Positions 4,590-58,552 of a stretch of 64,000 nt of DNA are shown here, in pieces. Positions within the stretch are counted from its first letter, which is position 1. Each line of letters begins with the position of its first letter. A program made the translations under genes and the position numbers. The DNA is taken from positions 6,696,001 to 6,760,000 of the forward strand of contig CM022679.1 of the NCBI GenBank assembly GCA_012295275.1, given 5' to 3'. The DNA comes from Chrysomallon squamiferum (lineage: Eukaryota > Animalia > Mollusca). The notes under the pieces were generated by a model. The model was not told the DNA's origin, ran no database searches, and saw nothing but the letters and a program-made list of their open reading frames with translations.

Positions 4590-4621
<32 letters not shown>

Positions 4622-5165
4622 CATAAAACATAAAAATATTATTTTTGAATTTTATTAATAAAATTAAATCAGTTTAATGAAACAATAAATATCTCATCAA
4701 CATGAGTAAAGTCGAGAAAAAAATTCTTTAATTTTGTAAAATAACATGAAATAAAGACTATTATTTTGTTTTAATTTATATGAATTAGAAACAAAAGCAA
4801 ACAGTTACAAATTAAACATGAATATAAATTGCATGTATGTATTCCATCTGATCTGTTTCCACTCAAGAATCCATGTTGTGTAAAACTAAAGTACTATTTT
4901 TTAAAAACAAGTGTTTTCAAAGATTCCTACTATTTTCAAAGTTTGTGGCAGTGATTGCTTTTTTAATAAATGATTTTTGGTCTATTATTAATCGGTGTTT
5001 AACTGGTGAGGAATATAATTACAGTCACTGTATCTAAATGTTTTTATTTTTTATTATTTTTTTTTTTAGTCAAGTACACATCCATAAAAATTATTCTTAT
5101 CTTATGCAGTTCTTAGAACTATCAGATTTTATTTGACATGTTATTAAGTTTTGTCCAGTAAAAAA
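1..5165 (+). repeat. Segmental tandem duplication, copy 1
   Basis: Exons and introns align with 57075-64000. Confidence 0.92.
513..1751 (+). CDS. Gene A: three GCC2/GCC3 (ephrin-receptor-like Cys-rich) repeat exons
   Basis: Exons 513-671, 1004-1159 and 1581-1751, all phase 1-1. CxxCPxGxYQ...GxxxCxxC...GSTSxSxC pattern, e.g. [21 protein letters not shown]. Confidence 0.92.
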
Positions 5166-5614
5166 AAAAAAAAGGCAGCCTATTTTAAATTTTGTATTTA
5201 ATAATCATACTCTTACTTAAATGTTTTCACCATACCTGACAGTTCAGTACATAATAAATAATTCTACATTAACCTCTATTAAAAATTTTGATAAAAAAAT
5301 TATTTTAAGTAACTCTTTCAAATTTTGATTGTCCTAATTTTCATAATGAGACATTCAGCCCAAAGTATTTACTCTGTGATGTTCTAATTTTTAATGTCGT
5401 GTATGGACTTAATACTTTTTTATTTCTCACTTTTATTTTATTATTATTATTGTTTTTTTTAAATATTTTTCTTTGTTTATTTCATTTCTGATTGCTCTTT
5501 CAGTTTTGTATTTTGTTCTGTTGTCTTTTAAATGACTTGTTTAAAATATCTCTGCAGTGTTATTTGTTTTTAGGGTAACAGAATAATTTACTATTTAAAA
5601 TAATTAATAGATGG

Positions 5615-5669
<55 letters not shown>

Positions 5670-8600
5670 ATTACATTATACAAATTCTTTTTGTTTCAAG
5701 TCTCAAACTTCTGATGAATGTATATTTCAATTAATTATAAATTAGGGTTATTTATGAAAAGTCTAAATAAAAAAACTGTATATTAATCAAAATTTAATGA
5801 TCTTTATAAAATTGTATTCTTTTCTATATAAGAAGTTAGTAGTTTTACATGGGAGAAGCAAATAAAATACCTGTTTAACATGTGATCATTTTAACTCAAT
5901 TTAAATTTTACAGTGACAACCACTAAACTATATATTTTATTTTGTACTAGAATTTCTTTTGATTAGAACAGTCTTTTAATGATTCGCAGTGAATATTTAC
6001 TTAAAAAAATAAATAAATAAATAAATAAAATGTGGGTTTAACCTGCATGTCTCATTATTTAGCAAAAAAATTAATTAAATTTTCAAAATATAACATGCTG
6101 AAAAGTAATATAAACGTTTGAAATGTTGAAAATTTATTATAATATGAAAAACATAATTAATAAGTGACCTTAAAAAAATAATTGAATTAATATCTCTGAG
6201 AAGTTAGAGATTTTAAAATAAAATATTTGTTTTCCAGAACTGATTCAAACAACGTAAATTAAAAAAAAGACTTTCACACAGTTTTGATATTTCAGTAACA
6301 TTTTACAAATACATTTATGAAACAGGATTGTTCTTAAATTACATTTTTTGTTTGTAACTTTTTTTTAGCTGTTCAATTGTTGAACCTGTCTGTACAACTC
6401 ATCCTTGCAAGAACGGTGCTACTTGTGTACCCTTGGGAAACATCCGCAGAAAATGTCTGTGTCAGGATGGTTACACTGCAGAAGACTGCTCACAGGAAAT
6501 AGGTGAATTTATTAGCCAACAATTTCAGCAAGAAAGAAAAAGCAACCAGTTCATTTTGTTGTAGTTATTTATCATTATCAGTTATTAAATTTAAAAAAAC
6601 AAAAATAATATTTTTCATAATACAGTTCTATAAATGAGCTTTTCTCACAGCTGGCATTATTACTATTTATAAATATTAAATACACAATATAACAAATTCA
6701 AAAAGAGTCTTGTAAAACAAATTTATTCGGTTTTCTCACAACAGATGACTGTGAATCAAATCCTTGTTATTATGGAGGCACGTGTAAAGATAAACATCTT
6801 GGTTTTGAATGTACTTGTCCATCTGGCTACACTGGACAGCGGTGTGAGAATCCTCCTCAGCAGTGTCTTGGTGTGCAGTGTGGACCTGGGCAGTGTGTGG
6901 CAGACCACATTCACAACACATACCAGTGTGTTTGCAATGCCGGAATGCTCTATGGTAAATTATTTATTTACTTTTTAATTTATTACTTTTTGTTTTAATT
7001 TCACTTTTGTATTTATTGCTATAATTTCAAAGTCAAGATAGAATTTTTCTCAAACTGATTAGTGTGTTTTGTAAAGTTTTCCAACAGATTAGATAGTAAT
7101 ATTCACAAATTTAGTGAATGAACATCCAATTTTGTTTTATTTTTTTATTTATTTTATTTTATTTATTTTTATTTATAATTATTTTTTTAATAATCATTAT
7201 TAAATGTTTTAAAAAACAATATACTAAGCATCTTCACTGTAAGGTCTTTTACCAAAATAGTTCTGATTTGGAGCACTCTGAATTTCTGGGATTTTTTCTT
7301 TTAAACCACTTTCAAATCAGTTTATAAATATTAACAGACTAAACCCTCTTTGATGAGGAAAGTTCCAGAGTCAGAATTGTTGGATGAATAACTTAGTCAC
7401 TGGTTGGTTGGTATTTTAGGTCTATTATTAACATGTGCAGGCACTAAATCTGATATTTCTGTATTTGTCAATTAAAATATAAAAAAAAATAATTAAATCA
7501 AACTGCTACTTATTAATTTTATATACATAATTTTTCAAATAATAAACAGGTTTTAATTGTTAAATTAAATATTATTAAATATTTATTTCCGTCTATCTGT
7601 TGAACTGATTTCTTTACCCATGAGATTTAGCAGAATATGTTAGTTTATGATATATTAAACTAATTTTCATGTATCAAACTTGGCTTTACTTGTCACTGAT
7701 TTTGTTTGATTTTCTCTATTCAACATCAGTTGGCTTAACTCATTATAATATTCTCTTTCTGAAAAAAGATATAAAATCATCATAAAACATGAAAGCAGCC
7801 AACAAAGTTACTGAGTTATTTAAACAAAAATATTATCGTTATTTAAATGGAAAATGTCATTGTGTAGAAAATGTTGTAATTCTGAGATAACTTTGATGAC
7901 AGTTTGTATTCAGAAAAGATTTAACATGAAAATGATAATAGATGGCAGCTTGTTACAGTTCTGTTGATTGGACAACTGTGCCACTTTCAGGAAGTAGCTA
8001 CTTTAGTGGATTATAATGTCAATTACATTTTAAAATCTGTTTCATTAAACCTTTAATTTTTTTCATGTGTTTCAGAAAACCTTTGAGAACAATTAAGTAG
8101 CAGAAACACCAGGGAATAAATAGATTAAAAACAAAATTAAATTATTATTATCAGTGTGTATTATAAAACAAATTATAATTGTTATCATTATTATTGTTAC
8201 TGTTATTGTGTTATTACAGATATACATTATATTTGTGCTTATATTAATTACAGAGTTATTCACTTTAAATGTTGCAGGAAAGTTCTGTCAGTATGACATA
8301 ATGGTTAAGAAGCAGATGACTTCATCATCAGTAACAAAGTCCTACAGTAACAAAACTGCCAAGGAATGTCTAAATATCTGTGAAGAAAAAGATGACTGCA
8401 AAGCTTTTACTTTCAACACTACAAGTAATGACTGTGAGTTACATGGACAAGCAACCACAAATCTGACTGACTCGGAAAGCACCAACTACTACATAAAAAC
8501 CTGTAAAGATCAGTCAGGTAATACAAAGGCTAATGTACTGTATATTTTTAATGCATTGTCAGTTTTATACACTAAACGAAAGGTTATTTTTATATCACAT

Positions 8601-11600
8601 ACTTGAATATATTAGCACATATTTGGTCTGTATTTATCATACACACAGATGGATATTTTAGAATTATTTTACAACACTGATTAAATCATATATATGGTAT
8701 GTTTTAGTTTTTCAGATGTATTGACCATTATGGTTTTTTGGGGTTTTTTTTTATTTCATCTGGAATTGTTTTCATCTTACATATTTGAAAATGATATTTA
8801 ATCTGATGTGTTACTATCATTTAAAATGGCATTTAGCTCAAGTATAAAATATTATACTGATTATATTTAAGAATAAACATTGGATAGAAAAAGTAAAAAA
8901 AATTCTGTTATGAAATCTTTCAACAGCTTTTATTACAAATGCATTGGGCATAAAAAAAAAAAACATACACATAAATCTAGAATTAAGCAGAAAGAATAAT
9001 ATTCACAAAAAATAATTGTAAAGTTGTCATTATAGCAATCTGGATTATTTTATTTCTGTAGATGATTTTTGGACTCCATGGTATAATACAAAGAAACCTA
9101 CAACTGATATAAATTCAAAAGATGAAGAAAATAATGACACTTTATTAGAGGTAAGTCATTATTTAGAATTTAATGCCAACATGAACATTTAAACATACTA
9201 TCAAAACATACTATACTAGGAAAAAAAGGAAGAGTAAATAATGGTTTGAATGCTTTTTGTTTTTGTACATTATTAATGACTTTGATAATATATAAATACA
9301 GTAATCATTAATGATTTTGTAACATATAAGAAATTTCAAATCACAATCAATAAATTTTAAAATTTTAATATAAAAAAAATTGTTAAATAAATAGAAACTT
9401 TACATAAAAAAGTGTTGTTTATCCTATTTTAGTAGACGTGTATGTATTTGTTTTTAACATAATTCTTTATTTACATGTTTTGTGGTTAATTAAAGTGTTT
9501 CTCTTGTAAATATCAGTATCACTGATGCAGAACTGAATCTGATATAGGAATAAAAATAATGAAAAAAGAGATGATGTACCCAAAATGAGTCAAGTCAGAT
9601 TTGTCTCTAGTCAGAGCAGAAATATTGCAGTTACAGAAAAATAATTGCACCAAACATTTCAATCCAAATTTATGGTAACAACATTTTTTATGAAATATTA
9701 TACATTTGTTAACCAGTAGATCATTTGTGATAATAACATTATTTATGAAATATTATACATTATCTAACCAGTAGTATGATTAGTTCAGTTCTAAGTGACA
9801 GTAGAAGTAACATTATTTATTACCACAGTTCAGTGGTTGTAAATGTGGTGCTACTTTCTGAAACTGTAATGACAAAGAAAAAATGTGTTATTTAACAATG
9901 TACTCAACACATTTGTAATCTTGTTGTGAATGATGTCATGCACATGTTTATATTCATACAATGACTGAGAGAGGAATTACACTGCTGTAACACAAAGGAC
10001 TATTATTTTTTCATTAAGCAGCAAGGGATATTTTATTTGCTCCTTTCCATATAAAAGTAATAAACTATTAAAGATGAAGGATGTCAGCTTTATCCTATCC
10101 CAGAATTGTATTTTAAATTTCTGCTTCAGGTTGGTATTGCGATATGTAAAGGAACTGATCCTGTTAATGTTGAGTGCAGAGATGTGACCAACAAACTGCC
10201 TCCAAACGAGACTATTACCTGCTCAGTGGCCACTGGACTGACTTGCAACAATAAAGATCAAACTGATAAACAGTGTGAAAATTATGAAATCCGTTTCAAA
10301 TGTGCTGTCAGTCAAGGTATGTAGAATCAGACAATCAGATTTGTATTAGATATATTTTTTGTAGTTATTATTATTATTATTTATTCAAAGTTAAATTATA
10401 TGGTTCAGTTATATGCTTTACTGAATTTATTGCAAAATTCTAAACAAAATCATTCTATTCATCCTTGAAATATGTCTTTAGTTAAAAAAATAATTAAAAA
10501 TTAAAAATTAAAAAAGGAAATTGTAATATTAACAGCTATTAAGTGTTAAAAAACAGTTTTTATATAACACAAAAGAAAATGATTGCATAACTAACATCTG
10601 TAGAATGGCAACTTTGGCCTAATAACTGTCTTTGGGCTTGTCTTAATGTTTTTTCATAAGCAGCAGAAAATATCTCTTAATAAAATTCCATTTATTTCAT
10701 TTAAAATTTGTTTCAGTATTCACTGAAAATACTTGCACTCAACCAGCTTACTGTCAAAGCAGTCCTTGCCAACATGGAACCTGTCAGGAAAAAGTTGATG
10801 GTTTCTCATGCTCATGTAACACAGGATACCAAGGCTCCCTGTGTCAACATGACATTGACTACTGTGCATCAAAACCCTGTCTAAATGGTGGAACTTGTGA
10901 AGACAGACTTTCTGACTATATTTGTAAATGTACTGATGGTTTTACTGGTATGTTACTAATAAATGTTAATAGTCTAATTTGTGAAAATTAAAATTCTTTC
11001 TCTATAAAATGACTGATTTCAAAAAATCAAGGGTAAATCAAGAAAAGATAATATTGTATAAAGCAAGAAAAACAAAAAAACAGGGGTGAAAAATTCTCAA
11101 AAACAGTCCAATATTTTTCTGTGACTAAGCCAAAACACACATATTTTCATGTTTAAGACCAAATTAAATGCTACTGAGCAATGAATTGTAAATTACTTTT
11201 GGAACTGGCCTTGCATTCCATTTTAAAACACAACATTATTATTATGACATATATTAACTTCTGGCCTGCTAAAGCAACAAACATTATCCAATTGTCCTGT
11301 AGATCTTGTAAAAATATTCATTGATTATTACCAAATTAATTGTGCCATTAACACAGATTTTTTTTTTTATCATGTAATATATACTAAATACTAATAATTT
11401 GTTAATCCGACAAATTATCCTCTTCTGATTTTAAACAAAAAATTAATTATTTTAAAACATGTTTGGGTAACAACAAATAAATCTTACCATGTCATAATAC
11501 TTTTAGGCACAAACTGTGAGATTAACATTGATGATTGCAAACCAAATCCTTGCAAGAATTCAGGAAAATGTCAAGATGGTATTAATGGCTATGAATGTGA

Positions 11601-14600
11601 CTGTCCAAAAAGCTGGACAGGTCAGAATTGTGAGGTATTATTTTATTAGAAAATTAGATTTATTTTCTAAAACTTCAGGTGTTCTTCAGTGTTTTTATTT
11701 TAAATTATTATATTTTAATGATAATTTTAATATTATTAAAGTTACATGAATTAGCTAATTGACTGGTTTTTTATTATTTCATTTTATCTTATTTAATTTT
11801 TTATGTCAGTATCTATCTATCTCTATTATCTATACATTAACAATAATATAATATATTTTTACACATGATTAATAGTTTTATAGAAAATGTCACTGAGAAT
11901 ATATTTTTAAAATTACAATTAATTCTCAGTTGCATTTACTTTTCATTTTTAAACACAGTAATTGATTTCCAAATTCTCATGTACTTTTACATTTCAGTAA
12001 TTTCTCTTTTCTAAGTATATATATAAATAAGAAATTAATCAATTTTTCTCAAGATTTACATTTATTTCTAACTATGAATAGTAGTGATATTAGAAAAAGT
12101 ATTTTAAATATAATACTATTGTTTTACTTCAGACTGATGTTGATGAATGTAGTCTCGGTGAACCATGTCTTCATGGTGGTCAGTGTAAAAATGTTCCAGG
12201 TACATACACATGTCAGTGTCCAGATGGATGGAAGAATCCGAAGTCTTGTAATGACATTGTAAAACTGTGTAATCCTGCAACCTGTAACAACAATGCAAAA
12301 TGTTTCAACCTATTTAATGATTTCTTCTGCAAGTACGTACTTAACAAGACTGTCTAAACAATGTTTGTCACTTGATAGAAATATAATACATTTATTATCA
12401 AAACTTGTAAATTTAATCAGATATAAAACAAAGTAATTTAACAGTTCATTAAAGATATGCTCATAATTATATTAGTTTAATTTAATTTTGGCTGTGGAAT
12501 TAATTATTTTCAAAATGTCACCCTGATTTCTGTAACTTGCTTACTTATTTTAAATTAAGATACTAAAAGTAGATATCACAGTTTTTTGCATTAGATTTCA
12601 TTTTGTTCCCATTACCATTTATTTGAATTTTGTTTTTATTTCAGGTGTAAAGCTAACACATATGGTAAAAAATGTGAAAGCAATCCTAGTATCTGTGCAA
12701 ATGCCAACCCTTGTCAACACATGAACTACTGCAATGAGACTGCAGGTACAGCCAGCTGCTACTGTACAGAAGGTTTGTAATTATTTACACTGTTTAATAT
12801 AATAATTGCATGTTTATTTTTTTTTATTAACCAGTTTGTTTTGTAATACAGCCATAATGTCTTTTATACTCATCCACATAACCATACATACATACAAACA
12901 CAAACATAGATTTAACAAACAAGAATTATAAAAATGTTTTTTTCAATTGAAAGATGCATTTTAACAAACAAGAATTATAATAATTTTGTATTTTAATAAA
13001 AAACACAACCATGTTAAGTAGAGTATTAACAGGATACAAACATTTGTGATTTTGTTTTCCAGATTTTGAAGGTGATGGGTGTGAGTTACGTGTTGACCAT
13101 TGTAAAAGTAACACATGTAAAAATGGTGCAAAATGTACCCAAACAGCAACCAATGACTACTCATGTGCCTGCACACCAGGTTTGTGAACAAAGATAAAAG
13201 TATGAGTCTAAAACATTTTGTCTGTAGGAATGTTAAACCTTTTAATTTGTTGTTTTTCATTATCAACATAACAAATCCAAATATGTATTTATATGAATAG
13301 ATCTAATGGTAATCACCTAACTTTTTTTTAATTATTATTAATATTTTTAATTTTAGTATTTTATTTAGAGTAGTTTTTGTAAGAAATTGATAATATATTT
13401 TTTACATATTGAGAAATGTAAAAAATGTTGGATCAATTTACATTTATCAGTCTACTGTTGAATTAGATGGAGTTCACATTTATTGTTTGAAGAATATTAA
13501 ATATTATTTCCATTTATTATAATGAATTTTATTTTAGAGAAAGGATGTTTATTTCTGGTATTTTTATTTCAGGTTATGATGGCAAGAACTGTGAAAATAA
13601 TGTTGACAACTGTGCTGGTGTATCATGCCCTGGTGGAAGTTGCATTGATGGTGTCAATGAATACTTTTGTAGATGTCCAGTTGGAAAAACTGGAGAGTCA
13701 TGTTCAAAAGGTTAAAATCACCAACGAAAATAATAATAATTATGAGAATTTGAAAATAATGATAAACAAAAACAAATTCTCATAGTAAAATAAATTTACT
13801 TGTTTTATTACAAAAGAGTTCTTTGACCAAAAAATCTGATATTTTCACTTAAAGCATAATATCAAATTACTACTACCTTATTATACTTTCTATACTAACA
13901 AATATGAATGGATCTAAACAGCAAGTAATTGTAAAATTTTATCTCTGAAAAGGTAATAATTATTAAACCCTTTTTGCTTCCTTTTCTTCTACAGATGTCA
14001 ACCAAAATTATGACTTACTGTTTGAGTTGCCACAAAAAACAAACATGGCATCATTACCATATCCAATTCCACTGAAAGTCACTCAGCTGACTATTAGCTT
14101 TTGGGTCAGGTTCTGGGAAAAAGATGGAAAAGGCACCTTTTTCAGCATGTTTTCTGAGGCGTGAGTTTTCGCTTTTAATTTCATTTTATTGCTATCAATT
14201 TTTAACACATATATATCTATTAAAGTCTTATTTATTATTTTATAACTAGTGAGAAAACCAAAGGAATGGTTTCAGCCTTATGGTTGTATCTGTGAATTTC
14301 ATTAAAGATTACAAAATAATGTTCATCCAACACTGACAAATAATGACAAAAACACACCTTTACATCATACTTTTAAAACAGTTTGTAGCACCGTAATGTG
14401 AATATTTATTATAAATGCTGACTTTTAAAATGTTGAACCAAAATGAACCAGACTCTTCATTTTCACTAAACATGTTATTTTGCCTATAAAAATTCTAACG
14501 ATTAAATTATATTTTTACCTGATTTAAGTTAATTTTCAGACAGTAAACAATATTTAAAATGAAATTTTAGATTGATTTTTTAAAATTAAAATTAATTAAA

Positions 14601-17600
14601 TATTTGAAGAAAATTATTCAAGTTATATATTTTTCTTAACCATTAATTTATCAAATTTATTTATGATTATTTTGACAGAAAACCAAATTCTTTGAGTGGA
14701 AAGAAAGAACTCCTGCGTGTTGATGAAAAAGGTCTCTACATTGACTTTAGTGGCAGTAATACCTTTTTTGATTTTCCATACTACAAATACAATGATGGAC
14801 GATGGAACAACATTATCATCAACTGGGACAGCACAACAGGAAAACTAAACTTCATAGTAAACAGTATTAACCGCAGTCCCATCAACAATTATGCAAAGGA
14901 TGTAACTCTTGATGAAAAGTAAGTGTGACATTAATTTATTAATACCACTGAATAGTTGATGGAGGACAAACAGAGAAATCATGACATAAGTAATTATTTT
15001 CTTCTATGGAGGAAATGAAACAGGAGCATTTTCCCCATTAATCTGTAATGTTGATAAGTAGCAGTGTTTGATCAGACTAGCTAAATCTTGAAAGAACTTT
15101 GTTTTTAAAATTGATTTAAAATTTAGTTTTCATCATTAAACAAGAAAGTTTAAAGATTATGAATATATATCAATAATTAAATGTGTAGAACTGTTAAGCA
15201 GATTCTATATGTTTTAAGTGTGTATGACTTGGAAATTAGACATAATGTTTGGAATGGAGAACAAAACAATTAATAAAAAATTGTGAAGAGTTTCAGAATT
15301 AGTCATTCATCTGAACAAGTCACTATTTTGTTTCAAGAGCTGTTTATTTTTATTTTATTTTAATTTAACAAATAATAAAATGGCTGTTTCACCTCAAGCA
15401 GACATAAACAAATTTTCCTGTATTACATTTTATAATTAAATAAATTTCAATTCCATTATTAATACAAAAAAAAAAAGAAAAGAACAGAGAATGTTTTTAA
15501 TTTATTTATTTATTTATATTTTGGATCTGAAATCATTAAAGTTTAGTGAAATAGTGCCAAGTATTATAGTTACAGGTTAATAGGAAAAAATTATTAATTA
15601 CCTTTAATTAGTCATCATAATCATTACAAAATGAAAAACAATAAATCACTGGGGATAAAACTGTTTTAATTTTTGATAACAAAATTACACTTGTTTTTTT
15701 TTATTATTATTATTATTTACTGTTATAAGCCAAGTTCCTGAAATTTCACTGAAAAGATCAAATATTGAATAAGGAACCTAAAGAGGAAAACAGTGTGTTA
15801 AAACTGAGATACTAAATGTACTTTATTTCTAAAACTGTTAAACTTTTTGAAGTTCTTTTTTATTTATCATCTTTCCTTACTTTATAGAGATAAATATTTC
15901 AGATTAATTTGTTCTTTTTTTGTATGACTAGACATATTTTTAAAACTTATTTCTCTGAGAAAATTTTGAGTTTTTAAAAAGATTTTAGAATTTTATAAAT
16001 TTTTAGACACAATTTTAAATATAATCTAATAGCTTAGTTCAATTATACACATTTTGTATTAAAATAAGCAGTAAGTAGCATCCATAATTTTGAGGTCATT
16101 TTCAGATGTCATATAACCAATGAATATAACATTAATTTCTTTGCAAATAAAGACATTTTAACTTGAAATAATGTTTAATATTATTATTTTCTATTTTCAG
16201 TGTGTGGCTTGTTTTAGGGAGCAAGTATGACCCAGCTACAGAAAAACCAGTAACTAATGAAGGATTCAACGGTTGGATAAGCCAACTAGTGATTTATAAT
16301 CGTGTCCTTGATTTCAGTACAGAAGTTCAGCAATCTCTAGACTTTCCCACAAAATTGTTTAAAGATTACATCTTTGTTTGGAATGAATTTGTACGTTCAG
16401 CTGGGGTAAAGATGATTATTCCTTCTACAGTTGAAAAGCCCTATGAATCCTGTCCACGAGGTTTTTCAGTAGCACCAGCCTGCAAACAAGCAAACCCACG
16501 TAAGATGACTAACATCTGAAAATCTATTCCTTATCATTGTGTGAAAGAAAACAACAACTGCTGCTGACTTTTTAAAATATGGTTAATTATTTTGATACAA
16601 ATATTGTGGTTGATTAAATAATTAATAATGCTCATGTTAATATAATAATTCTAGTGTACTTTAATTTTTTACATCAAAAATGAATTAATGTTTTAAATAG
16701 AATATTTCATTTTTACTTTTGATTTATCATATGTGACTATTTATAAAAGTATAATATTCTTTCCTTTTTTCAAAAATATTTTTGTTTTACATATAAAGTA
16801 ATAATTTAAATATTTATAGAAAAAATTATGGTTTTGCCAACATTTTGTCCATCTGATGTGAAGAAACTGGGAACTTCACGAATCACATATGTTACATGGA
16901 ATGAACCAAAGTTTGTTGGAGAAGCTAGTGTTGTCAAGAAGAGTTACAGCTCTGGTAAATATATTAACTTTTTTCACTCACTATTTTACAGTATTAAATA
17001 CTGATTAGCAACATAAACTAGCTAATCAAAGAACACCTAATAAAAATAACAACAGCATTGTAGTGTGTGTGTGTGTGTGTGGAATCAACTATTTGGTAAT
17101 CCACATTTTGTGGGCATGAAACGTACCATAATACAAAATGTTATATTTGATACATGTAGAAGAAATTTATATTTTAAAAATATTTTGTATTATATAGATT
17201 AATATTCAAAGTAGTTTTTTGCAGGTGATGCTTTCCTGTGGGGGAAATATCTTGTTGTGTATGTAGCTGAGAACAGTGCAGGAAACAAAGGACTTTGCAG
17301 CTTCAAAGTTTTTGTACAGTGTAAGTTTATTCTCTTCATATAACTGTCTGAATTTATTGAAAACACTTCTATCCAATGTTCTGTTTATAAAATAGTTTTG
17401 TCAGTTTCAGATAAATGATTAAACTGTTGAGAATATCATGTCTGAGCTTTCACAAACCGATTCAGAATATCTTTTTCTGAATACTGATGTTTAATGATAA
17501 TTTTAAAATAATAACACAGCTATCCAATAAAAGTAAAATTATATTAAATTTAATGTAAATTTAGTGATACTGAACATAAGCATCAAGAGATATACAATAT

Positions 17601-20600
17601 GTCATATTGTATTCAATTATTCATAGATCAAAATTGTCCAAAGCCTCCTGATCCATATCAGGGTATTGCATCATATGGCAATTCTCAGCAAAAATATTAC
17701 TATACCAGTATCATCTGCAATGATAACAAAGCTGTGGTGAGGCCAGTTCCAAATATATACACATGTGGTCATTTTGGCAGTTGGAACCCACCAAAAAAGT
17801 TTCTCCATTTTAGGCTGCCACCTTGTGGAGGTAAGTTCAAATTTATATTTTTGAATGAGTAAGAGTGTGTGTGGTCTGTGTATATATTAGTATAGATCTG
17901 TGTTTGTTTGTGAGTTTATATCCATTTTGACAGCAAACAGTAAATGTGTGTGTGTGCATGTGTGTGTGTGTGTGTTGTTTCATGTAACAATATACATTTT
18001 TATAGTTAGTTGACACTTTTTTGTTATGAAATTGTTTTCAGCTTTATAATTTTGGTGTAATATATTATTTAAGGAGGATTAAATGAAGAAATATGTAAAT
18101 TTTTTTTTTAAAATTTCTTTATATTTACAGTGAAAAAAATGAAAAGTTTCCAAACAGTGAAAATAAAGCTTGTTTACATTGTGGGAACATCAAACTGTGA
18201 AGGAGTTAAGACAATTCTGGAACAGGAAATTAGAACAAAAATCCTGCAGCTGAATAACAAATGGCCAAATCTTTGCCAAAGACAAACTGTGATGATGTGG
18301 TTGTTAGTATAAAATGTGGAACAAACCTCATCACAAGAAGGAGAAAAAGAGCTACCAATGATGTCATTACTTACATTACATTACCACAAGCAAAGTAAGT
18401 TGTTTAAGTTCTTTGCAAATATATGAACAGTTCATGCATTATACCAATTAAATATCAGGCTCATTCAATAAACTTTCACAATTCAGGAAATGTATTGGTA
18501 GGATAATTAAAAGCAGCTGATTTTTGATTTGCATGTATTTTGTACTATGTTGAGTAAAATATTATTGCTCCATTTTTAAAACCATGGATGCCAAATCTGT
18601 GCATATACAAATGAACATGTATAAATTAATGTATTCATTTGAAGTACTATAATGAAATAAATCTGTTTATGGATTTTCTGTTTGGTTTCAGTGTTCAATG
18701 TGACATCCACATCTGGAGAAACATTGCCTGCTACTGATGTGCTAAAACGTAGCATTTTCGCTGATAATGATTTTGACTTCAGTGTGAGTTTAGTTTTCGA
18801 TCCCTTCTTATTTCTCACTACAGTATAAGTTTTGTACATTTAAATTCAAGTGAAACCAAAGATGTATTTCTTAATTAAAATCTACATAAAACAACATTTT
18901 AATAAATAGTATATCGTTTTCTTTTTATTAAAATTTACAATTTTTAGGGGAAAAAAGTATATTAATAATTGATATTTCTAAAATAATTCTTAATTTAAAT
19001 TAATTGATTGATAACAAAAAATGAATCAATTGTTGATGTGTGTGTTATATGATTTTTTCACTGTTTTTATTTATTTACAAAATTTAAGCCCCTTGGTTAT
19101 CAACATTTACATGTATATAATCAAAATGTTTACAGAATTTAATTTCAAATGGCATTCCACTAAGTCAAGAAGTTGTTATCTCAGCGGACCTTGCTTGTCC
19201 ATCTGGTCAGGCTCTTGTTCAGCAAGAATGTGGTGAGTACTGTGATAAATTAATTGTTTGTTCTTCATAATCAAACATTTAAATATGTCCATATTTGTTT
19301 CAGATTATGATCACAGGATCAGAATTGCTAATGCTTTGTTCTGATGTCTTTGATTTTAATTACAAGTATAAAGCTTTCAGCATGTCAGAAAATTATATTT
19401 ATATTCAGATTAACCATTTTAGATGACTTTGATGAGTAAGGAAAACACAAGTAGTGATGTATCTTTGTGTAGAAAGGCAATGATTGCTCTAGCTAAGTAA
19501 ATTAAGAAGTATTCAGCTGATGCTGAAATCTGTCCAGTTCATGATTAGGGATAAAGTAACCTCTTATATTTAAAGTTAAACCACTGCAAATTATATATGT
19601 AATGTATAAATATTTTCAGTTGCCTCCCATTCCAAAAAAAAGCTAAGAAGTACAGATAGTGTTCAGAAAAAAAATATTAAAAAATAAAAACAACAGACAT
19701 AAGATATCTAAAAAATAAATTCTATCAAATTTATCACTTTATGAATTTTTTAAAAACTACATATTTTGTGGGCACATTATTTTTTATAAACCAAATAGAA
19801 TGATTTACTTTAATTTTATTGATTTTTAAAAATGTAATTGTTAAGATTGTATGGGTTAGAAAATGTAATGTAGGTAACAGTTCATTTTTTATTTTTCAGT
19901 GGAATGTGCACCAGGTACATTCTACAACAGTGTAACCAAGACCTGTGATGACTGTCCAGTAGGTCAGTATCAGACATCAGCTGGTCAGACATCTTGTACA
20001 TCATGTGATTCTGGAAAAACTACAGAGCTGCCAGGATCAAACACCAAAACTAACTGTAAAGGTATGAAAGCTTTAATTTTTTTCTTGTTTTGGGGTTATT
20101 TAAATCATGATCTACATATATTTAAAAACAAAATTAAATGAAAACATAAATTTTTGTTTATTACTATAATCTTTTTTTATCAAAGAATAAGTTTAAATGT
20201 AACAAAAGAAAAACATTAACAAAATTTTCATTTTTTCTAGTGTAATTTTATGACTAGAAACACAAAAATAATTGAATAACTTGAGTAATTGTAACACCTT
20301 TAATAAAAAGGTTGCAGTTGTTTTATTTATGAGAAAAATTTTATAATATTTATTTTAACATTTCTTTTTCAGCTTCATGCATGCCTGGAGAATATTTTGA
20401 CTATACTTCTGACAAATGTGAAAAATGTGATTATGGATTCTACCAAAGTTCACCAGGTCAGTTCTACTGTGAGCCATGTGTTGTGGAAAACACTACAAGG
20501 GCTCAAGGATCTACAAGAGAATCTGATTGTTATAGTATGTTTTATGAAATTTCTTAATTACTAATTTAAATTGTGTTTATTTTTCGTTTTCTTTTTTCTT

Positions 20601-23359
20601 TTTCTGCTAAAATTTAGAATTTATTTTTTTTAAATAATCTTTCATTTTAATTATAAAATTTAATGAAATATTAAAATTTTATAAATCTATCCACACATTA
20701 ATTTCTGAATAATATAAAAAATGTTTAGAGGACTGTCCACCAGGTAAAGAAATTTCTCAAGATGGATCATCTCAGCCCTGTCCTATTGGAAAGTACAGAA
20801 CAGTTCCCAAATTATCATTAGAAAACAAATCTCTAAATATGTGCTACATATTCCTAGTAATAAATATTATTCATATAAATACAAAGTGTATGTTATGGTA
20901 AGAAATTTCTTAAAGTCATTTAATGACAGATTATAATATTTCAGTGAGCTGTCCACCAGGAAAGGAATATGAAGGAGGAGCTTGTGTTCCTTGTAAAAAA
21001 GGTTTTTACAAAGAGGTTTCCATGGCAACTAAATGTACACAATGTCCACCAAACAAAACTACAGCAGAAGAAGGTTCGACACAGGCCTCTGACTGTAATC
21101 TTGGTAACTCTGTTAAATTCTTATTACCTTAGATGCAAAAGTTAATTACCTTTCATTTAATTTTGTAACTTTAAAGAGATTTTATTTTCTGTTAACAAGT
21201 TTTTGTATTTTACAATTATTTGTGATTATATTTCTGGGTATTTATATAAATGATTATTTAACATTTAACCAGTTCTGATTATAAGAAATACTACATCACT
21301 TAGAAAATATATAAATATATTCATGTAAAAAACTTTATATAACTTTTATACTCTTATAAAAATCTAAACTATCAAGTTTATTTTCATTATGGAAATATTA
21401 TTGTGAGTGAATGGTGTTAATATGCTTTTATTTGTTTTTTAATGTCAACTTTTGAAGAAAAAACAATTTATAAAATTTACCGGCATGGTGTTGTTTTTTT
21501 ACATTCCAAAGAAAAATGTTATGTTACTATTAAATAAAAATATGTAATGTTACTATTAAATAAAAAATGTAATTTCCATACTTAATAATTTTAACATTTT
21601 ATTAGCAAACTTTATCATTAGCAAAGACAGGTCAGTCAAGGTATCAAATAAAGCAATAACCTGCAAATACAATTACAAAATGTTTTAGGCTATTTCAGAA
21701 ATACCATTAAATTTGATATTTGTTATGATCATTGAGGAAAGTTATTTAACCTTGAGAAATATGAGTGTAAACAATAATAGTATAAAAAGTATTATTACTG
21801 AAAGTGCTAATACTTTTTTTGTTCTTATTTACATTGTTTTCAGTTGTGTTATTTATTGTTATTTTATTTTCAGATATTAAATCAGATGCACTCTCAGAAG
21901 AAATCATTTTTATTATTATTGGGAGTGTGTCTGGGATTGTTGTAACATCTTTCCTTGTTATAGGCATCATTTTACTGTTACGAAGGCAAGGTTGTTTAAT
22001 TTCTAAAATAGGTAAGACAATTGCTCAGTTAATTTACAATCTAAAATATTGAAGATCCTTATACTTTTTACTCTATTAATCTGTGTTTTAAAAGGAAACT
22101 GAGTGTAAACCATCATTGATACAAAAGCTGTAGGAAAGTAAAGTACAAATTTAGGGAAATGACCTGCTAAGTGAGATATACTAAAGGCCAGGAGACAGGA
22201 TAAAGCAGGATCAGAGACCACATGAAAAACAGTTTTAAAATGTCTGACAAGCAGCATTGTCAAAGAATGCAGACTTAATTTAATTTTTATTATCACTGCA
22301 TAATAATTTTAAACAATAGAAAATAGTAAGTGGTAACTTTATATTTTGATTCTTGAACTTATTTCAGTCATCCACTAAGCACTCTCAGGTAATGTGACAG
22401 TGATGCTGAAGAGAATATTACTGAGAATGTGTCCAAGTCACTGATTAATATACAGTAGTTTAGCATAGTATTATAACTCAGTGATACATTTATATTGGTA
22501 ATTTTATGCACGTTAATTTATAAATGTTTCATTTGAATACAGTTGGCTAGCTGCTTTATGATACAAAATGTTTAATTTTTTTTTTTTCAGATAAAAAGCA
22601 GGATGAAACATATTCGTAAGTGTATCTTGTTGTTTTTTGCTTTTTAATTCACAGTAAAGTTCGAAATGGATTAAATTTATCATCTTATTAATTAATTTTA
22701 TTTACTATTTTTAATTAATTAATTTTATATACAATTTTTGATTAATTTATTAATTTATTTATTTATTTATTTATTCATCACTGTTGTAGACATCTAGATG
22801 ATAGGAGGAGAGAGGAGGTTAGCAGTGGTATGTACAATGTCATTCATTCTATGAGTAATAATATTTTGTTTTTGTTTGTCACTTATGTTGCAGGTCTCTA
22901 TTACTTTAGGTAGCAATTAATTATTTTGAAAACATAATAAATTTTTGATCCCCAAAACTTAATTTCAAAATCTACCTTTAATAATGATTGTTATACTTTA
23001 AACAATAACTACAGTGAATATGTACTAAATCTGTACTAACTTGAATTAGTGACAGCATGTTAATACAATAATTTGGTACTGACACAAAAGTTTTACATTT
23101 CTTTGGTTTTAATGTTATGACTAATCAAAGTGTTTTACCATTTGATACAGAAACTCATAATGAAGCAGCATATGATAATTTGGAGCTTTATGAAGTTGCA
23201 AATGAAATTAACCTGAATAACAGTGATCAGGAATCCAGGCAGAGTGGTCAGCCTGAGTCAGACACACTTACAGAGCCAGATCATTCTTATGACAGCCTCC
23301 AGGAACGAAGAGAAAGACCATATGCGACATTGCAACCCTATGAAAATCTGGAAAACTGA
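513..23359 (+). CDS. Gene A: Uninflatable/SVEP1-like giant EGF/GCC/LamG/HYR type I membrane receptor, 3' portion (multi-exon, 5' end outside window; frame disruption near 18280)
   Basis: About 33 exons with canonical AG/GT sites and matching phases, ending in TGA at 23357-23359. Domain order GCCx3-EGFx~14 (with PAN+WxxW)-LamG-HYR-sushi-furin domain-GCC-TM-tail matches the Uninflatable-type architecture. Confidence 0.88.
2101..6954 (+). CDS. Gene A: EGF repeats 1-6
   Basis: Exons 2101-2187, 3276-3389, 3755-3884, 6369-6502 and 6745-6954. Notch-type EGF motifs such as [31 protein letters not shown]. Confidence 0.92.
5618..5666. repeat. (GT)n microsatellite
   Basis: Perfect dinucleotide run. 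Similar runs at ~25624-25666 (CA), 31028-31084 (GT) and 43436-43462 (GT). Confidence 0.95.
8278..8517 (+). CDS. Gene A: PAN/apple domain exon
   Basis: 240-nt phase 1-1 exon. Six Cys with the PAN core [18 protein letters not shown]...DCEL...YYIKTC. Confidence 0.88.
9062..10316 (+). CDS. Gene A: Mucin2-type WxxW domain (2 exons)
   Basis: Exons 9062-9150 ([10 protein letters not shown]...DEE) and 10130-10316 (...[23 protein letters not shown]). These are the WxxW and CxDYExRxxC hallmark motifs. Confidence 0.88.
9966..10050. repeat. Degenerate dispersed repeat (SINE-like) in gene A intron
   Basis: GAGAGAGGAATTACACTGCTG...AAGCAGCAAGGGATATTTTATTTGC resembles 26680-26750. Confidence 0.35.
10717..13710 (+). 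CDS. Gene A: EGF repeats 7-14
   Basis: Exons 10717-10947, 11507-11634, 12133-12332, 12645-12772, 13063-13179 and 13573-13710. Continuous frame; calcium-binding EGF motifs (DIDYC, NIDDC, DVDEC). Confidence 0.92.
13995..16499 (+). CDS. Gene A: laminin G / pentraxin-like domain
   Basis: Exons 13995-14160 (LTISFWVRF), 14679-14918 ([24 protein letters not shown]) and 16201-16499 (LVLG...[15 protein letters not shown]). Confidence 0.88.
16820..17830 (+). CDS. Gene A: HYR domain followed by a sushi-like domain
   Basis: Exons 16820-16954 (CPSDV...VTWNEPKF), 17225-17320 ([31 protein letters not shown]) and 17627-17830 ([10 protein letters not shown]...YTCGHFGSW...LPPCG). Confidence 0.86.
18131..19232 (+). 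CDS. Gene A: furin-site (RRRKR) SEA-like domain, reading frame disrupted
   Basis: Exons 18131-18394, 18692-18783 and 19136-19232. The entry frame hits TAA at 18310-18312; the alternative frame reads [26 protein letters not shown]. The SEA-like fold is inference. Confidence 0.7.
19900..21103 (+). CDS. Gene A: membrane-proximal GCC2/GCC3 repeats
   Basis: Exons 19900-20061, 20373-20534 and 20945-21103, all phase 1-1 with an intact Cys pattern. Confidence 0.9.
20729..20803 (+). pseudogene. Truncated GCC-repeat exon remnant
   Basis: After an AG acceptor it reads (K)[24 protein letters not shown], then becomes intron-like. One expected Cys is Ser (TCT) and there is no good donor site. Confidence 0.7.
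21874..22011 (+). CDS. Gene A: transmembrane exon
   Basis: [26 protein letters not shown] followed by stop-transfer RR. Acceptor ttttcAG, donor G|GTAAGA, phase 1-1. Confidence 0.88.
22591..23359 (+). CDS. Gene A: cytoplasmic tail exons with five YxxL motifs including an ITAM
   Basis: Exons 22591-22615, 22790-22827 and 23151-23359 join in frame: [38 protein letters not shown]...[34 protein letters not shown]. Confidence 0.82.
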
Positions 23360-36825: not shown

Positions 36826-38774
36826 GTGAAGGTTTTTTTGTTTTTTATTTAAAAAAAATATATAATTAGACCTCTCAAATGATAGTAAAATATTCAGAAG
36901 TATTTTTCAATATTAGTAATTAGATAAAAGTCAACGAACTCCATTTTACATTCTAAATGTTCAGAAACGTCTCGAACACCATTGCAGATTTTTATTAATG
37001 CGTTCCTTGCCTTAATAGTACACTGAAATTATTTGTGTTTCAATTTGATTATAAAATTAAATAAATATAGGCAGACCTTTCTGTTGATCATACCTTCTGT
37101 TTTTGTTGTGATGGGAGAGATGTCTTCATGGGGAAAAGAAAGAAAAAGAAGACATGAATTCTAAGAATTGACAGAGGTGTCAAAAAAACAATACCGTCAT
37201 CTGAATCAGTTCAATATCATAAACCAAAAATATAAACGCACGGCTTTGCCCAGCGTGAATTTTTACATCAAAAGATAAAGAAATATTTTAATTATATATT
37301 TAGATAATAATGATTAAAAATATCTCAGTTTTAATTTTCATTCTTCACAAAATTTATTGTTTTACAGGCTGGACAAACATAGGAGTACAGTGTTACAGAC
37401 TCTTTACATCTTTATCACCATGGGAAAGTGCAGCAAAAGTATGCAAGAGGTAAGAAAGGAAATTGTTTTCTTTACCTCTGTGATCCTTTCGGGATATCTA
37501 TTTATATGAAATCTGTTTGATTTGCAAAAAATGAATTTGATTAATATGCCACAGAGCATGAATTTGATTAATATTACAAATTGAGAATTTCATTGCACTA
37601 TTTTCTAGACCTCCAAATTTAATAAAATCGTCTTTACTTTTTTTCTGAATATGATCAGATTTTTTTCTCAAATATATATACTGCATTTAATTATAATTTT
37701 TAATGTTTTTACTAATATAAATGAAATAGATTTTTAAATATAAAAAAAAAATTGAAAAATGGTAGCTGTATTGTGGTGTTCTTTTGTTGTAGTTTTTTAT
37801 TATTTGTTTTTTCTCTCTACTTTAGCTACGGATCTGAACTGGCAACAGTTACTGATTATTATGAAACTGAAGATGTTGGCAAGTTTGCTGACTCAAAAGG
37901 AAAGACTAAATTTTGGATTGGTAATTAAATTAACTATAACAGCTTATTCTGCTATTTCATCTGGAGTTCTGGAGGATATTGTAAATTTTATATATATCGG
38001 GTTTTTATCTCTCATTCACTAATATATACATGTCAAGTTGTTAATCATTAAACAGAAAAATACATTCACGAGTGTAAAACATAAAAAATGTGTGTCATTA
38101 TAATTTGTTTTGTGCTTTATTTGTTTATTGTTTTATTAATCTTGTAAATCTATAATTATATCAAACTATGGTTCCCAATCCGGATTTCCACCAAAATCAT
38201 AAAATTAAAATGTTTCTTTTGATACCTAATTAAATACATTTTTGGGTTTGTATCTTGAATTATCATTTTATTTTATTTATTTTATTTTATTTTATTTTAT
38301 TTTATTTTATTTTATTTTTATTTATTCATTATTGTTATTATTATTTCAGTACAGTCTTTTAAATTATTTTAGCTGTCATTTGTTTGGAGAATTTCTTGTT
38401 AATACATTTTTAATAAATTACTGTATTAAAGAGTTGCACAGAAAAGTCATCCTGTTTAATTTTGAAAATGGCTAAAGATTTGGGTTTTTTGAAACTGTAA
38501 CAAGTATTTTACTACTTTTTGTTTTAATAGGATTAATCAGAGTTCGTTATGATAGTAAGTGTTTATAAAATAGCTGCATGCAGATAACAAAATTGAAAAA
38601 ATTGAAAAAAATCTCAACAACAAACCATACACTACAAGTGTTGGATTTAGATTGTGATTCAGACAATAATTATAAAATATTTTCTCTTAAAATCTACAAT
38701 GTCACTAGTCATACAGATTCAAATAAAAAAGTATTTAATTTTAATTCTTTTTTAAATTATTATTAATGTTGTTG

Positions 38775-38806
<32 letters not shown>

Positions 38807-41800
38807 GATGTATGTGAAGATAAGATGTAGATAAATAGATTACTGAAATGAAAAAGAATTCATACTGCACAAAATGTATGATAACATATTTTGTATTCTC
38901 AGTCTTATTTATTTCTATCTTAACAAAGTAGAATTTGTAGTATAATAAGTAATCACTTGTTATAATATGTAACTATTTCATCATCAAATTATAGATATAG
39001 AATGCATTTATCAGTATTCAAACTCCATTTTAAATATACCAAAAACAGTTCTATATGGATCTGATTTTCATTATTTAGCAAGAAATCCAATATTTGTAAA
39101 AATTTAATTTTACACAATACTTATCCTGGTTATAAAAGATTATGATACTAAATATATAATTAAATTATTACTATGTTGGGTTGTTATTTCATTTTATTTA
39201 ATTTGGTGTTTTAGTTCTAATTAAAAAATCCAAAGTCTTCTTAAATTTATGATTACTGTATTTTGTGTTATAAAATGTTTCCATATATCTTTTGTGTTTG
39301 GTATAAAGATAGTGTTAACAAACATATACTAAATATTTTGTAACTTAAAAATGAAAATGATGAAACTTTTTTTAACAATTAGTCCTTCAATTGTTTTGAA
39401 ATAGGTAATAACCGTATTGGAGCTGATCCTGGTAATCCACAGGAAACATTTTGGAGCAATGGAGATAAAACAACTGTATTTGCTGGTTTCTGGAAGAACT
39501 TTCAACCAGACAGTAGCAAGAAACAAGAGTGTGTGTACATTGAAAAACAGGGTGTCACTTATAAGTGGTCATTTACACAGTGTGAAACCAAACTCAGTTA
39601 TCTCTGTCAAAGACATGCTTGTCCTGAAGGTACTTTGTCACTGAACATCTGCTATCTTTTTATATATTGTAATAATTTTATATAAAATAGTAACTTTAAA
39701 ATGTGGAAAGCAGTAGTTATAACTCAATACCTATTATATTTTTTGTTATAGTATGTCCACTAAATTGTCCTTAAATGTCTTTTGTACTTACTTTTTACTG
39801 ACTGTAAAATTTATCAAAATGAAGACAAATTATTTACACTTAAATAATTATTTGAAACTTGAATAGATATTTTGTAAATTCTGTATTATTGATTTAAATC
39901 ACGAAAATGTTCATACTGTAGGAAGTTTCCACTGTTCAAATACTCGCTGCATTAATAATAACTTGACATGTGACGGAGAGGATGACTGCGGAGATTCATC
40001 AGATGAACTTGACTGTCGTAAGTTTGTTTTCACTTCTTTTTTAATAACATCTTAGATAATGGTATTTCAAAATTTCATTTATGTTTATCTAAAATTTTAT
40101 ATGATTTTCACTCTTATAAACAACATATTAATTCTTTGTGTGTGAGTGTGACTGAGGGAATCAATTTGAAAGACTTATTGTTATTATTATAATGTTATTT
40201 GTTTACTGTAAAATTATTTAACTTTATGTATTATTTAGCTTCTAAATGTTCCTATGTGATAAAACAAGACACTGGCAGATTTGTTTCACCAAACTATCCC
40301 AACAATTACTCTGATTCAGTCAACTGTTTGTGGGTGATTGAAGTGCAGACTGGATCAAATGTTGTTTTGCAGGTTAGTAAACAGCTTTTCTTATTACTAA
40401 TGCTAATTAAATTCTTCTGAAAATCATACTGATCACATTCAGACATACAGAGTTAAAATTACATATGTTCAAATGAAATAGATACCATAATTTATTGTTT
40501 AAAAAAGTTCAGTAATATATTAATTATATATATATATATAAACACACAAAAAGAAAAAGCCAATAAAAATAAATAGATAAATCCACCAATATCAAACAAG
40601 TAATAGGCCATCTTCAAAAAGATAATACTGATTTGAAAATCCCATATATGTTTAAAAATATACAAAAAACAAATTAGGTCTGGAGCACAAAATGACTGAG
40701 GAACTAACTCGTTTTGTCACACTGACACACACAGAAAAAATCTTTGATTAATACTAATTATGATGTAATTAGCTGTTAGCTGAAATACAGGACATAAAGC
40801 TAAATGAAATCCTTGGTTATTAACAATTTATGATAAGGGGAAAATATTATTGTAAAAAATGTATTTAAAAAGAAATAAATCTGTATTGTTAGATTATATC
40901 TACTAAAGTTAAGAGATTATATTTTATTTATGCTTTGGTTTTGAAACAATTACTGAAATGCCAATCATTTTACATGGCTTTTTACCTACTGTGTTATTAA
41001 ATTGTATAAATTTCCTTTAAAAAAATGAATGAATTATTTGTAACACAGTGAGAAAATGCATTAAATATATGTGCCAGTTAAAATATATAAAATGTTATGT
41101 AAGAGAGAACAAGAAAAGAGTTTTGTGGACATTAGTTCTTTATTTTGTTTAAACATCTCAGTTCAGTAACATTGTTAATTATTGAAATAGATTTCCAGTT
41201 ATATGTTTTATCAGACATAATAATTGTCTTATTTCAGCTTTCCTTTTTCCATTTAAAAACAAATAAAGTATTAATTAAGATACTAACAAAATGTCATATC
41301 TTACTTAGTTAAAGTGTAATGAAATCTTTGTTTATTCACAGTTTAACAGTTTTGTCACAGAACAAAATGGTGACATTGTTGAAATTCTTGTTGGTGGCCA
41401 AACTGAATCCATGTCTCTTCTTGTCAAGAGACTATCGGGTAATCAGAATGGAAAAAATCTAAAATTTGTTAGTTCCAACAACTTCATGATTGTCAAGTTC
41501 ACGTCTGATGCCTCAGTTGGAGCAGCAGGTTTTAATGCATCATTTTCTTCCAGTAAGTAGAAATACTCAAAAAACACAAAGTAGGTTATTCTAATATTTA
41601 ACATTTTTATTTTATTTGTTTTGATTATTATTAGAAACATTTAATAAGAAATTGTAGAATGTAGTGTACAACACAAATTTGAATGAGTATTTTAACAGAA
41701 ATAGTTACAAAAAAACAAAAAAAAAAATATATCCATCTTTTTAGTATGTTAATTTCAATATTTTCCTGTATTTCTCAGCTGAAAATTGAGATGATTTTTT

Positions 41801-43432: not shown

Positions 43433-43468
<36 letters not shown>

Positions 43469-58400: not shown

Positions 58401-58552
58401 AAGTAAATATAATAAAATAATACAATGAAGAGATGATATGTCACAGATTTAAAGAGAGTATGTAAATTATTTTAATTTATAATATACAAAAGTTTAAAAT
58501 ATTAAAAATTATATTCTAACAAAAAATTTATTTTGTCCATCATGTATTCTAA

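What the first reader, a model, noticed from the sequence alone, without database searches (positions are those of the whole stretch)
21874..23359. Uninflatable-like giant receptor ends in a full-consensus ITAM signalling tail
Seen in sequence: after the TM helix, three small exons build a ~100-aa tail with YSHL, YDNL, YDSL, YATL and YENL. Residues encoded at 23255-23332 ([26 protein letters not shown]) match the complete ITAM consensus D/E-x7-D/E-x2-YxxL-x7-YxxL, and YDN/YEN fit the Grb2-SH2 pYxN preference. Established: ITAMs recruit tandem-SH2 Syk/ZAP70/Shark kinases, as in the Draper-Shark phagocytic pathway; Drosophila Uninflatable is known as an apical-membrane and Notch-modulating protein rather than an ITAM receptor. 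Inference: a lectin/CUB/sushi/EGF ectodomain has been rewired into an activating immune, phagocytic or recognition receptor.
Basis: partly seen in the sequence, partly recalled or inferred. Interest (0 to 1): 0.85.

Follow-up and report, generated by a model that had tools for sequence, protein, structure and literature searches.

The report
Snail Uninflatable copy with ITAM tail
In a snail related to abalone, a duplicated copy of the giant cell-surface protein Uninflatable has lost its usual inner end and carries instead a tail with an immune-type activation motif (ITAM), spliced on in RNA, so it likely works as an on-switch receptor, although no signalling has been tested and this particular copy may be broken.

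Summary
Exons 21874-22011, 22591-22615, 22790-22827 and 23151-23359 have GT-AG ends and matching phases. They give a 100-aa tail in which 5 of 6 tyrosines are YxxL, with a strict ITAM at 23255-23332 (40 of 200,000 shuffles match). RNA contigs join the last GCC exon to the TM exon and the TM exon to the tail; one of the four joins was not seen. The ectodomain is a gastropod Uninflatable (Uif), sister to abalone Uif (99/98). The tail is not Uif's normal tail: 0 of 51 homologue tails carry an ITAM, and all 23 checked have EGF-type cysteines before the membrane, which this gene lacks. The same RNA runs hold a second form that carries on into the next GCC repeat, as ordinary Uif does. So this is a derived paralogue in a tandem cluster whose C-terminal end was replaced. 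ITAM receptors are already known in molluscs (oyster CgIgR-Syk); an ITAM on a Uif ectodomain was not found in print. Caveats: no functional test, one lineage only, two A-run indels in this copy's frame, and a broken GCC exon that could be an assembly join.

The parts
513..13710 (+). Gene 1 (its start lies upstream of the window): 17 exons for 3 GCC repeats, EGF repeats, a PAN domain, a Mucin2-WxxW domain and further EGF repeats
   Evidence: Pfam hits on sampled exons; collinear with Haliotis P0002 residues ~1556-2434; frames and splice sites checked
13995..17830 (+). Six exons for the LamG/pentraxin-like, HYR and sushi-like region, the part used for the tree
   Evidence: 52-53% identical to Haliotis Uif over 379 aa; sister to Haliotis at 99/98. 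Domain names come from the matching P0002 stretches; the five of these six exons scanned alone gave no Pfam hit
18131..18394 (+). Exon for a module with a furin-type basic site (RRKR; I call it SEA-like from recall). As assembled it has a -1 shift near 18278 and a compensating +1 at or near its 3' end, with a stop between them in the straight frame
   Evidence: the same RRKR site is in 8 of 10 homologues printed
18692..20534 (+). Two linker exons and GCC repeats 1 and 2 of the last block (19900-20061, 20373-20534)
   Evidence: best matches P0002 2962-3013 and 3015-3067; the join 20061>20373 is in RNA contigs of X1, X2 and X3
20729..20803 (+). Truncated GCC repeat 3: the 5' third only, with no usable donor. 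It marks the internal deletion or an assembly join, and must be skipped for the frame to hold
   Evidence: best match P0002 3070-3092; RNA contigs of X1, X2 and X3 leave the window sequence at 20803 and continue as an intact repeat
20945..21103 (+). Last GCC exon, equivalent to repeat 11 of the 16 in abalone Uif
   Evidence: 60% identical to P0002 3509-3560; joined to the TM exon in an X3 contig
21874..22011 (+). Short spacer without cysteine, a 24-aa uncharged transmembrane segment, and the start of the tail
   Evidence: joins 21103>21874 and 22011>22591 in X3
22591..22615 (+). 25-nt tail exon ending in the Y-S of YSHL
   Evidence: GT-AG and phase; its acceptor is used in RNA
22790..22827 (+). 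38-nt tail exon
   Evidence: GT-AG and phase; join to the last exon in an X3 contig of depth 5.5, reported as 22828>23152; the join 22615>22790 was not seen
23151..23359 (+). Last coding exon: YDNL, YEVA, ITAM, YENL, stop
   Evidence: covered by RNA contigs of X1, X2 and X3; the X2 contig 23201-23377 differs only at 23208 and 23247
23255..23332 (+). ITAM matching the strict consensus (YDSL-x7-YATL)
37358..61899 (+). Gene 2: tandem Uif paralogue (C-type lectin, LDLa-like, 3 CUB, sushi, EGF, HYR, GCC, EGF). It runs off the window, so its tail is unknown
   Evidence: 57075-64000 is 84-87% identical to 1-5166 including introns; dN/dS 0.31 over 271 shared codons

Best explanation
This is a duplicated snail Uninflatable gene whose usual C-terminal end has been replaced by a different membrane anchor and an ITAM-bearing tail that is spliced on in RNA, so the product likely signals as an activating receptor through a Syk-type kinase. 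Shown: Uif ancestry; loss of GCC repeats 12-16, the two membrane-proximal EGF domains and the normal tail; the new TM and tail exons; three of four splice joins; and an ordinary-type form in the same RNA runs. Inferred: the exons arrived by exon shuffling or unequal recombination in a tandem cluster; the N-terminal lectin/CUB/sushi half resembles the neighbour's; ligand binding clusters the receptor, a Src-family kinase phosphorylates YDSL and YATL, Syk or Shark docks through tandem SH2 domains, and YDN/YEN may recruit a Grb2-type adaptor (pYxN preference recalled); the output would be ERK activation or engulfment in haemocytes or epithelium. Also inferred: the indels in this copy are assembly errors or private to this copy.
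For: Motif enrichment 2e-4 and 3.5e-5 against shuffles. RNA joins 21103>21874 (depth 32.9, 43 letters on the short side), 22011>22591 (33.1, 25 letters) and 22827>23151 (5.5, 25 letters) occur in X3 and not in X4, X1 or X2. Tree: sister to Haliotis Uif inside a gastropod clade, 99/98 and 99/96. 0 of 51 homologue tails have an ITAM-like pair. 23 of 23 homologues have 5-12 cysteines between the last GCC and the TM; this gene has none. The tail does not score above its shuffles on a profile of 17 mollusc Uif TM+tail ends (46 of 500 shuffles reach it). Contigs in X1, X2 and X3 match the last GCC exon at about 87%, and in X2 the contig runs on into the next GCC repeat as in Haliotis (loose ends translated by eye). 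The TM is uncharged, with no ITIM or NPxY. Oyster CgIgR uses an ITAM to engage CgSyk (PMC6994640, passages).
Against: No biochemical or expression-by-tissue data. No relative of the tail was found outside these runs, so conservation of the tyrosines over time is untested. The join 22615>22790 and the skip 20534>20945 were not seen. All joins to the TM and tail come from single contigs of one run. As assembled, exon 18131-18394 holds a stop upstream of the TM. The libraries also hold intron sequence, so plain coverage is not proof of transcription. Pfam gives no ITAM family hit.
Confidence: 0.6

Rival explanations
1. The window's copy is a pseudogene or makes only a truncated, secreted product, while intact ITAM-tailed sister copies elsewhere supply the RNA.
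For: Two indels and a stop in exon 18131-18394; a truncated GCC exon with a Cys-to-Ser change at 20771 that no laid contig shares; TM and tail contigs differ from the window by 1-12%.
Against: All three indels found in about 10 kb of coding sequence across both genes lie at or next to short A or T runs, as long-read errors do (general knowledge). There is no nonsense substitution in gene 1's 33 exons, and dN/dS with gene 2 is 0.31. This rival changes the status of the copy, not the existence of the receptor type.
Confidence: 0.25
2. The link between the long Uif ectodomain and the GCC-TM-ITAM block is an assembly join or a recent local rearrangement at 20803; the ITAM block belongs to another, shorter receptor that captured one Uif GCC exon.
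For: The break falls in mid-exon; upstream exons are 97-98% identical to RNA contigs with an intact repeat 3, while the last GCC exon is only about 87% identical to the ordinary form; no listed contig bridges 20803; the locus is a tandem cluster.
Against: The exon spliced to the TM is a true Uif repeat 11, so the ITAM transcript is at least partly Uif-derived. Only 141 bp separate the broken exon from it, leaving no room for another gene start in this assembly. Tables 7 and 8 were cut (153 and 292 rows hidden), so the lack of a bridge is not informative.
Confidence: 0.15
3. The YxxL motifs serve endocytic or basolateral sorting (YxxPhi binding to AP adaptors) or single-SH2 adaptors, and the ITAM spacing is incidental.
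For: YxxL is also the sorting consensus (recalled); ordinary mollusc Uif tails keep tyrosine motifs of their own; fly Uif acts as a Notch antagonist (PMC3340373, passages).
Against: The strict acidic-flanked pair with a 7-residue spacer arises in 2e-4 of shuffles, and the tail is unrelated to the ordinary one.
Confidence: 0.15
4. The ITAM tail is an alternative last-exon set of the ordinary uif gene, like Draper-I versus Draper-II.
For: Both endings are present in the same RNA runs; Draper has such isoforms (PMC4503800, passages).
Against: The ordinary continuation (repeats 12-16, EGF, TM) is not between this gene and the next: P0002 hits only one generic GCC at 30657-30803. The two forms differ by about 13% in the shared exon, so they are different loci.
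Confidence: 0.03

Closest known systems
Uninflatable (Drosophila Uif; mollusc orthologues such as Haliotis asinina XP_067672504, Lottia ESP03827, Lymnaea CAL1527991)
   Same: Collinear ectodomain: GCC, EGF, LamG, HYR, sushi and the RRKR site in gene 1; C-type lectin, LDLa-like, 3 CUB, sushi and HYR in gene 2; single pass; nested among mollusc orthologues.
   Different: Only 3 whole GCC repeats in the last block against 16 in abalone; no membrane-proximal EGF pair; unrelated tail with an ITAM. Arthropod tails have one YxxL (YDRL); 15 of 16 mollusc-type tails have none and one has a single YxxI. The FA58C domains of fly Uif (PMC3340373) are absent from the mollusc type.
Oyster CgIgR-CgSyk-ERK pathway (PMC6994640)
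   Same: A mollusc single-pass receptor with an ITAM in its own tail; the paper's consensus D/ExxYxxL/Ix(6-12)YxxL/I is met here.
   Different: CgIgR has five Ig domains and tested bacterial binding and Syk interaction; here the ectodomain is a roughly 3,300-aa Uif type (estimated from P0002 numbering) and nothing is tested.
Draper/CED-1/MEGF10 with Src42A and Shark (PMC4503800)
   Same: An EGF-rich invertebrate receptor with a built-in ITAM signalling to a Syk-family kinase.
   Different: Different ectodomain family; Draper also has an NPxY motif, absent here.
Hydractinia Alr family (PMC9546547)
   Same: A clustered invertebrate receptor family with pseudogenes and diverse tails, some with ITAMs.
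   Different: Ig/Fn3 ectodomains and ITIM-bearing members; no ITIM partner was seen here, and gene 2's tail is outside the window.

Membership tests
Uninflatable family | Ectodomain collinear with Uif (EGF array, LamG, HYR, sushi, GCC) | tested here: met
Uninflatable family | Groups with Uif orthologues rather than SVEP1-like proteins | tested here: met
   sister to Haliotis 99/98; SVEP1-like rows fall outside at 100/97 (midpoint root)
Uninflatable family | N-terminal C-type lectin, LDLa and three CUB domains | not testable with these tools
   upstream of base 1 for gene 1; present in gene 2; no whole genome held
Ordinary (orthologous) mollusc Uif | Long terminal GCC block, EGF domains before the TM, conserved tail | tested here: not met
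   so it is a derived paralogue, not the ordinary orthologue
ITAM-bearing activating receptors | YxxL/I-x6-9-YxxL/I with upstream acidic residues, on the cytoplasmic side of a TM | tested here: met
   consensus as written in PMC6994640 and PMC9546547
ITAM-bearing activating receptors | Motif present in a spliced transcript with the TM | tested here: inconclusive
   3 of 4 joins seen, each in one contig of run X3; 22615>22790 not seen
ITAM-bearing activating receptors | Tyrosines phosphorylated and bound by Syk/ZAP70/Shark tandem SH2 | not testable with these tools
   needs a phosphopeptide assay
ITAM-bearing activating receptors | Motif conserved under selection among relatives | tested here: inconclusive
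   no outside homologue found; the motif is unchanged in one X2 contig; an X1 contig over 23213-23339 has 5 differences, 4 of them at unlisted places
Draper/CED-1/MEGF10 | EMI plus EGF-like ectodomain and NPxY motif (recalled; NPxY also in PMC4503800) | tested here: not met
   Uif-type ectodomain; no NPxY

The most novel reading that the evidence does not exclude
A snail lineage has expanded the epithelial/Notch-modulating gene uif into a polymorphic tandem family and grafted an ITAM cassette onto some copies, turning a conserved developmental surface protein into giant lectin/CUB/EGF recognition receptors for microbes, symbionts or self, paired with ordinary or decoy copies that share a near-identical ectodomain.
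Probability: 0.3. Interest if true: 0.75.

Novelty: new variant of a known kind. Interest (0 to 1): 0.52.

Why it matters
It is a traceable case of a new activating receptor built by swapping the inner end of an old developmental protein, with the donor repeat (GCC 11) and the lost parts identifiable and the ordinary form expressed alongside. That gives a natural comparison: a near-identical ectodomain with two different tails. It would extend invertebrate ITAM-Syk signalling, so far tied to Ig (CgIgR, Alr) and Draper-type ectodomains in the papers read, to the Uif family, and it makes the unknown Uif ligand testable with an ITAM reporter. The ITAM itself is not rare in invertebrate receptors, and the finding rests on one lineage without function, which caps its interest.

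Tried and rejected
No whole genome is held, so the genome-wide search for the tail could not be run. Tail homologue searches found nothing: longer proteins, 0 of 12 candidates at E<=10; near-length proteins, no candidate; JGI metagenomes, 0 of 135 pattern matches confirmed; Pfam, 0 families at E<=10; earlier scan findings by sequence, 0. ESM Atlas gave one unnamed 133-aa, mollusc-leaning cluster at 0.90 with a low recognition score and no named hit: a weak lead only. The one metagenome locus from the LamG exon (L001) is a 21-aa chance match in 59% GC DNA and was dropped. Shared DDR and YDN letters suggested descent from the ordinary tail, but the profile test did not support it (46 of 500 shuffles). 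Alternative splicing of the ordinary gene was rejected. No fold or complex prediction was run: phosphotyrosine cannot be modelled and no Syk sequence was in hand. PMC13712769 (Biomphalaria receptors; passages) has no mention of ITAM.

Full report
Observation. All have GT-AG ends, consistent phases and no internal stop. The tail is 100 aa with 6 tyrosines, five of them YxxL, and the strict ITAM is at 23255-23332. In 200,000 shuffles the strict pattern appeared 40 times and five YxxL/I motifs 7 times; the loose two-tyrosine core appeared in 1.1%. The TM segment has no charged residue. The tail has no ITIM, ITSM or NPxY, and two YxN sites. Pfam recognises nothing in the last exon.

Gene and neighbourhood. 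The window holds the 3' part of gene 1 (33 exons, 513-23359, 5,105 coding nt) and the 5' part of a tandem paralogue, gene 2 (37358 to at least 61899). Bases 1-5166 are 84-87% identical to 57075-64000, introns included. The six shared exons give dS 0.105, dN 0.032, ratio 0.31 over 271 codons.

Family. A search with the LamG-region exon found 27 proteins; the long ones are mollusc, best Haliotis asinina P0002. A search with P0002 residues 2250-3050 found 208 proteins, of which 120 were listed, including arthropod entries named uif. Gene 1 is collinear with P0002. A maximum-likelihood tree of 35 rows on the 379-aa LamG-HYR-sushi region places it sister to the two Haliotis proteins (99/98) within a gastropod-dominated clade (99/96); arthropod Uif and SVEP1-like rows lie outside. 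The host is therefore most likely a gastropod near abalone; this is inferred from the tree alone.

The tail is not the family's tail. I examined 57 of the 147 proteins fetched: the Uif-like ones covering at least 76% of the query region, plus long mollusc hits and cluster members from the first search. The Eys, Crumbs, Notch and most SVEP1-like partial hits were left out, and 88 hits were never listed. Of the 57, 51 have a C-terminal TM, and 0 of 51 have even a loose ITAM pair. Mollusc orthologues share a different tail, arthropods another with a single YDRL. In 23 of 23 homologues checked there are 5-12 cysteines (EGF domains) between the last GCC repeat and the TM; gene 1 has a short spacer with none. 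Its GCC exons match abalone repeats 1, 2, the first third of 3, and 11 of 16 (best blastp matches against P0002 and P0032, with the same order in P0003 and P0033 except repeat 2 in P0003). So relative to the ordinary gene it lacks most of repeats 3-10 and everything after repeat 11. A profile of 17 mollusc TM+tail ends scores the window's end no better than 46 of 500 tail shuffles: no detectable descent.

RNA. Four runs from two studies of one coded organism hold the stretch: three metatranscriptome libraries and one of unrecorded kind; all are contigs. Laid at 85% likeness on 19850-23900, X3 shows the joins 21103>21874, 22011>22591 and, with one differing letter, 22827>23151, each in one contig. 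The join 20061>20373 is in X1, X2 and X3. None of these joins is in X4. The join 22615>22790 and the skip 20534>20945 were not seen. An X2 contig covers 23201-23377 with two differences, both upstream of the ITAM (I>T and G>V). Other contigs match the last GCC exon at about 87%; read by eye, their loose ends continue upstream into repeat 10 and, in X2, downstream into repeat 12 as in Haliotis, which is the ordinary form. TM-exon contigs at about 90% identity, and up to five X4 contigs sharing a difference at 21964, suggest several copies or alleles of the cassette; depth is not a copy number. The RNA libraries also contain intron sequence, so only the joins count as evidence of transcription.

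Problems with this copy. Exon 18131-18394 has a -1 shift near 18278 and a +1 at or near its end, with a stop between. Gene 2 has a -1 shift near 42955. All lie at or beside short homopolymer runs and gene 1 has no nonsense substitution, which favours assembly error, but I could not lay reads there. The exon at 20729-20803 is truncated and must be skipped. RNA contigs leave the window sequence exactly there, and no listed contig bridges the point, so a misjoin is not excluded. Even then, the transcript joining a Uif repeat 11 to the new TM stands.

Mechanism. Most likely a uif duplicate acquired a foreign TM+tail cassette in the intron after repeat 11. By analogy with oyster CgIgR-CgSyk-ERK (PMC6994640, passages; Syk in molluscs also PMC13344425, passages) and Src42A-Draper-Shark (PMC4503800, passages), ligand-driven clustering would lead to phosphorylation of YDSL and YATL and docking of a tandem-SH2 kinase. 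Every step after the motif is inferred. Rivals are a dead copy beside live sisters, a captured exon with a misjoin, and sorting motifs.

Literature. Full-text searches found no paper with ITAM and uninflatable or uninflatable and mollus-; none with all five terms; and none with ITAM among the papers holding 5 of 6 domain terms. The library lacks most subscription papers, and no supplements were read. Fly Uif is described as a Notch antagonist with lectin, CUB, CCP, FA58C and HYR domains (PMC3340373, passages) and a short cytoplasmic domain (PMC12867482, passages). ITAM tails occur in 14 Hydractinia Alr models (PMC9546547, passages). Unchecked notes from this scan report ITAM-like tails on clam EGF receptors and on lectin receptors, which suggests such cassettes are common in molluscs and tempers the surprise.

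Verdict. A real, expressed, lineage-specific variant: a known ectodomain family joined to a known motif in a combination not found in the databases or papers searched. Function untested. Interest 0.52.

Noticed in passing
window 28990-30803 (+): Five orphan exons (GCC, a module with an RHRR basic site, two linkers, GCC) without a TM, only distantly like Uif (30-40%); a third, more divergent family member or a fragment.
   Followed up: partly
window 24105-25726 and 30987-33367: A long degenerate inverted repeat (73-88% identity) brackets the orphan exons; possibly an old DNA transposon carrying a gene fragment, or an inverted duplication.
   Followed up: partly
window 42877-43050 (+): Gene 2's third CUB exon has a one-base shift in an A run, like the shifts in gene 1; points to an indel-prone assembly or to a decaying cluster.
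   Followed up: partly
proteins P0002, P0003, P0011, P0033, P0039, P0043: Ordinary mollusc Uif tails share a conserved Y-x-N motif followed by a C-terminal D-P-A-V-Y-type end, unlike arthropod Uif tails; apparently unstudied.
   Followed up: no
proteins P0042, P0047, P0051, P0130: Littorina, Mizuhopecten and Owenia each have a second, divergent Uif-like paralogue with its own non-ITAM tail, so uif has duplicated several times in Lophotrochozoa.
   Followed up: partly
window 8278-10316 (+): A PAN domain and a Mucin2-WxxW domain sit inside the EGF array, also in the matching abalone region; they are not among the domains listed for fly Uif in PMC3340373.
   Followed up: no
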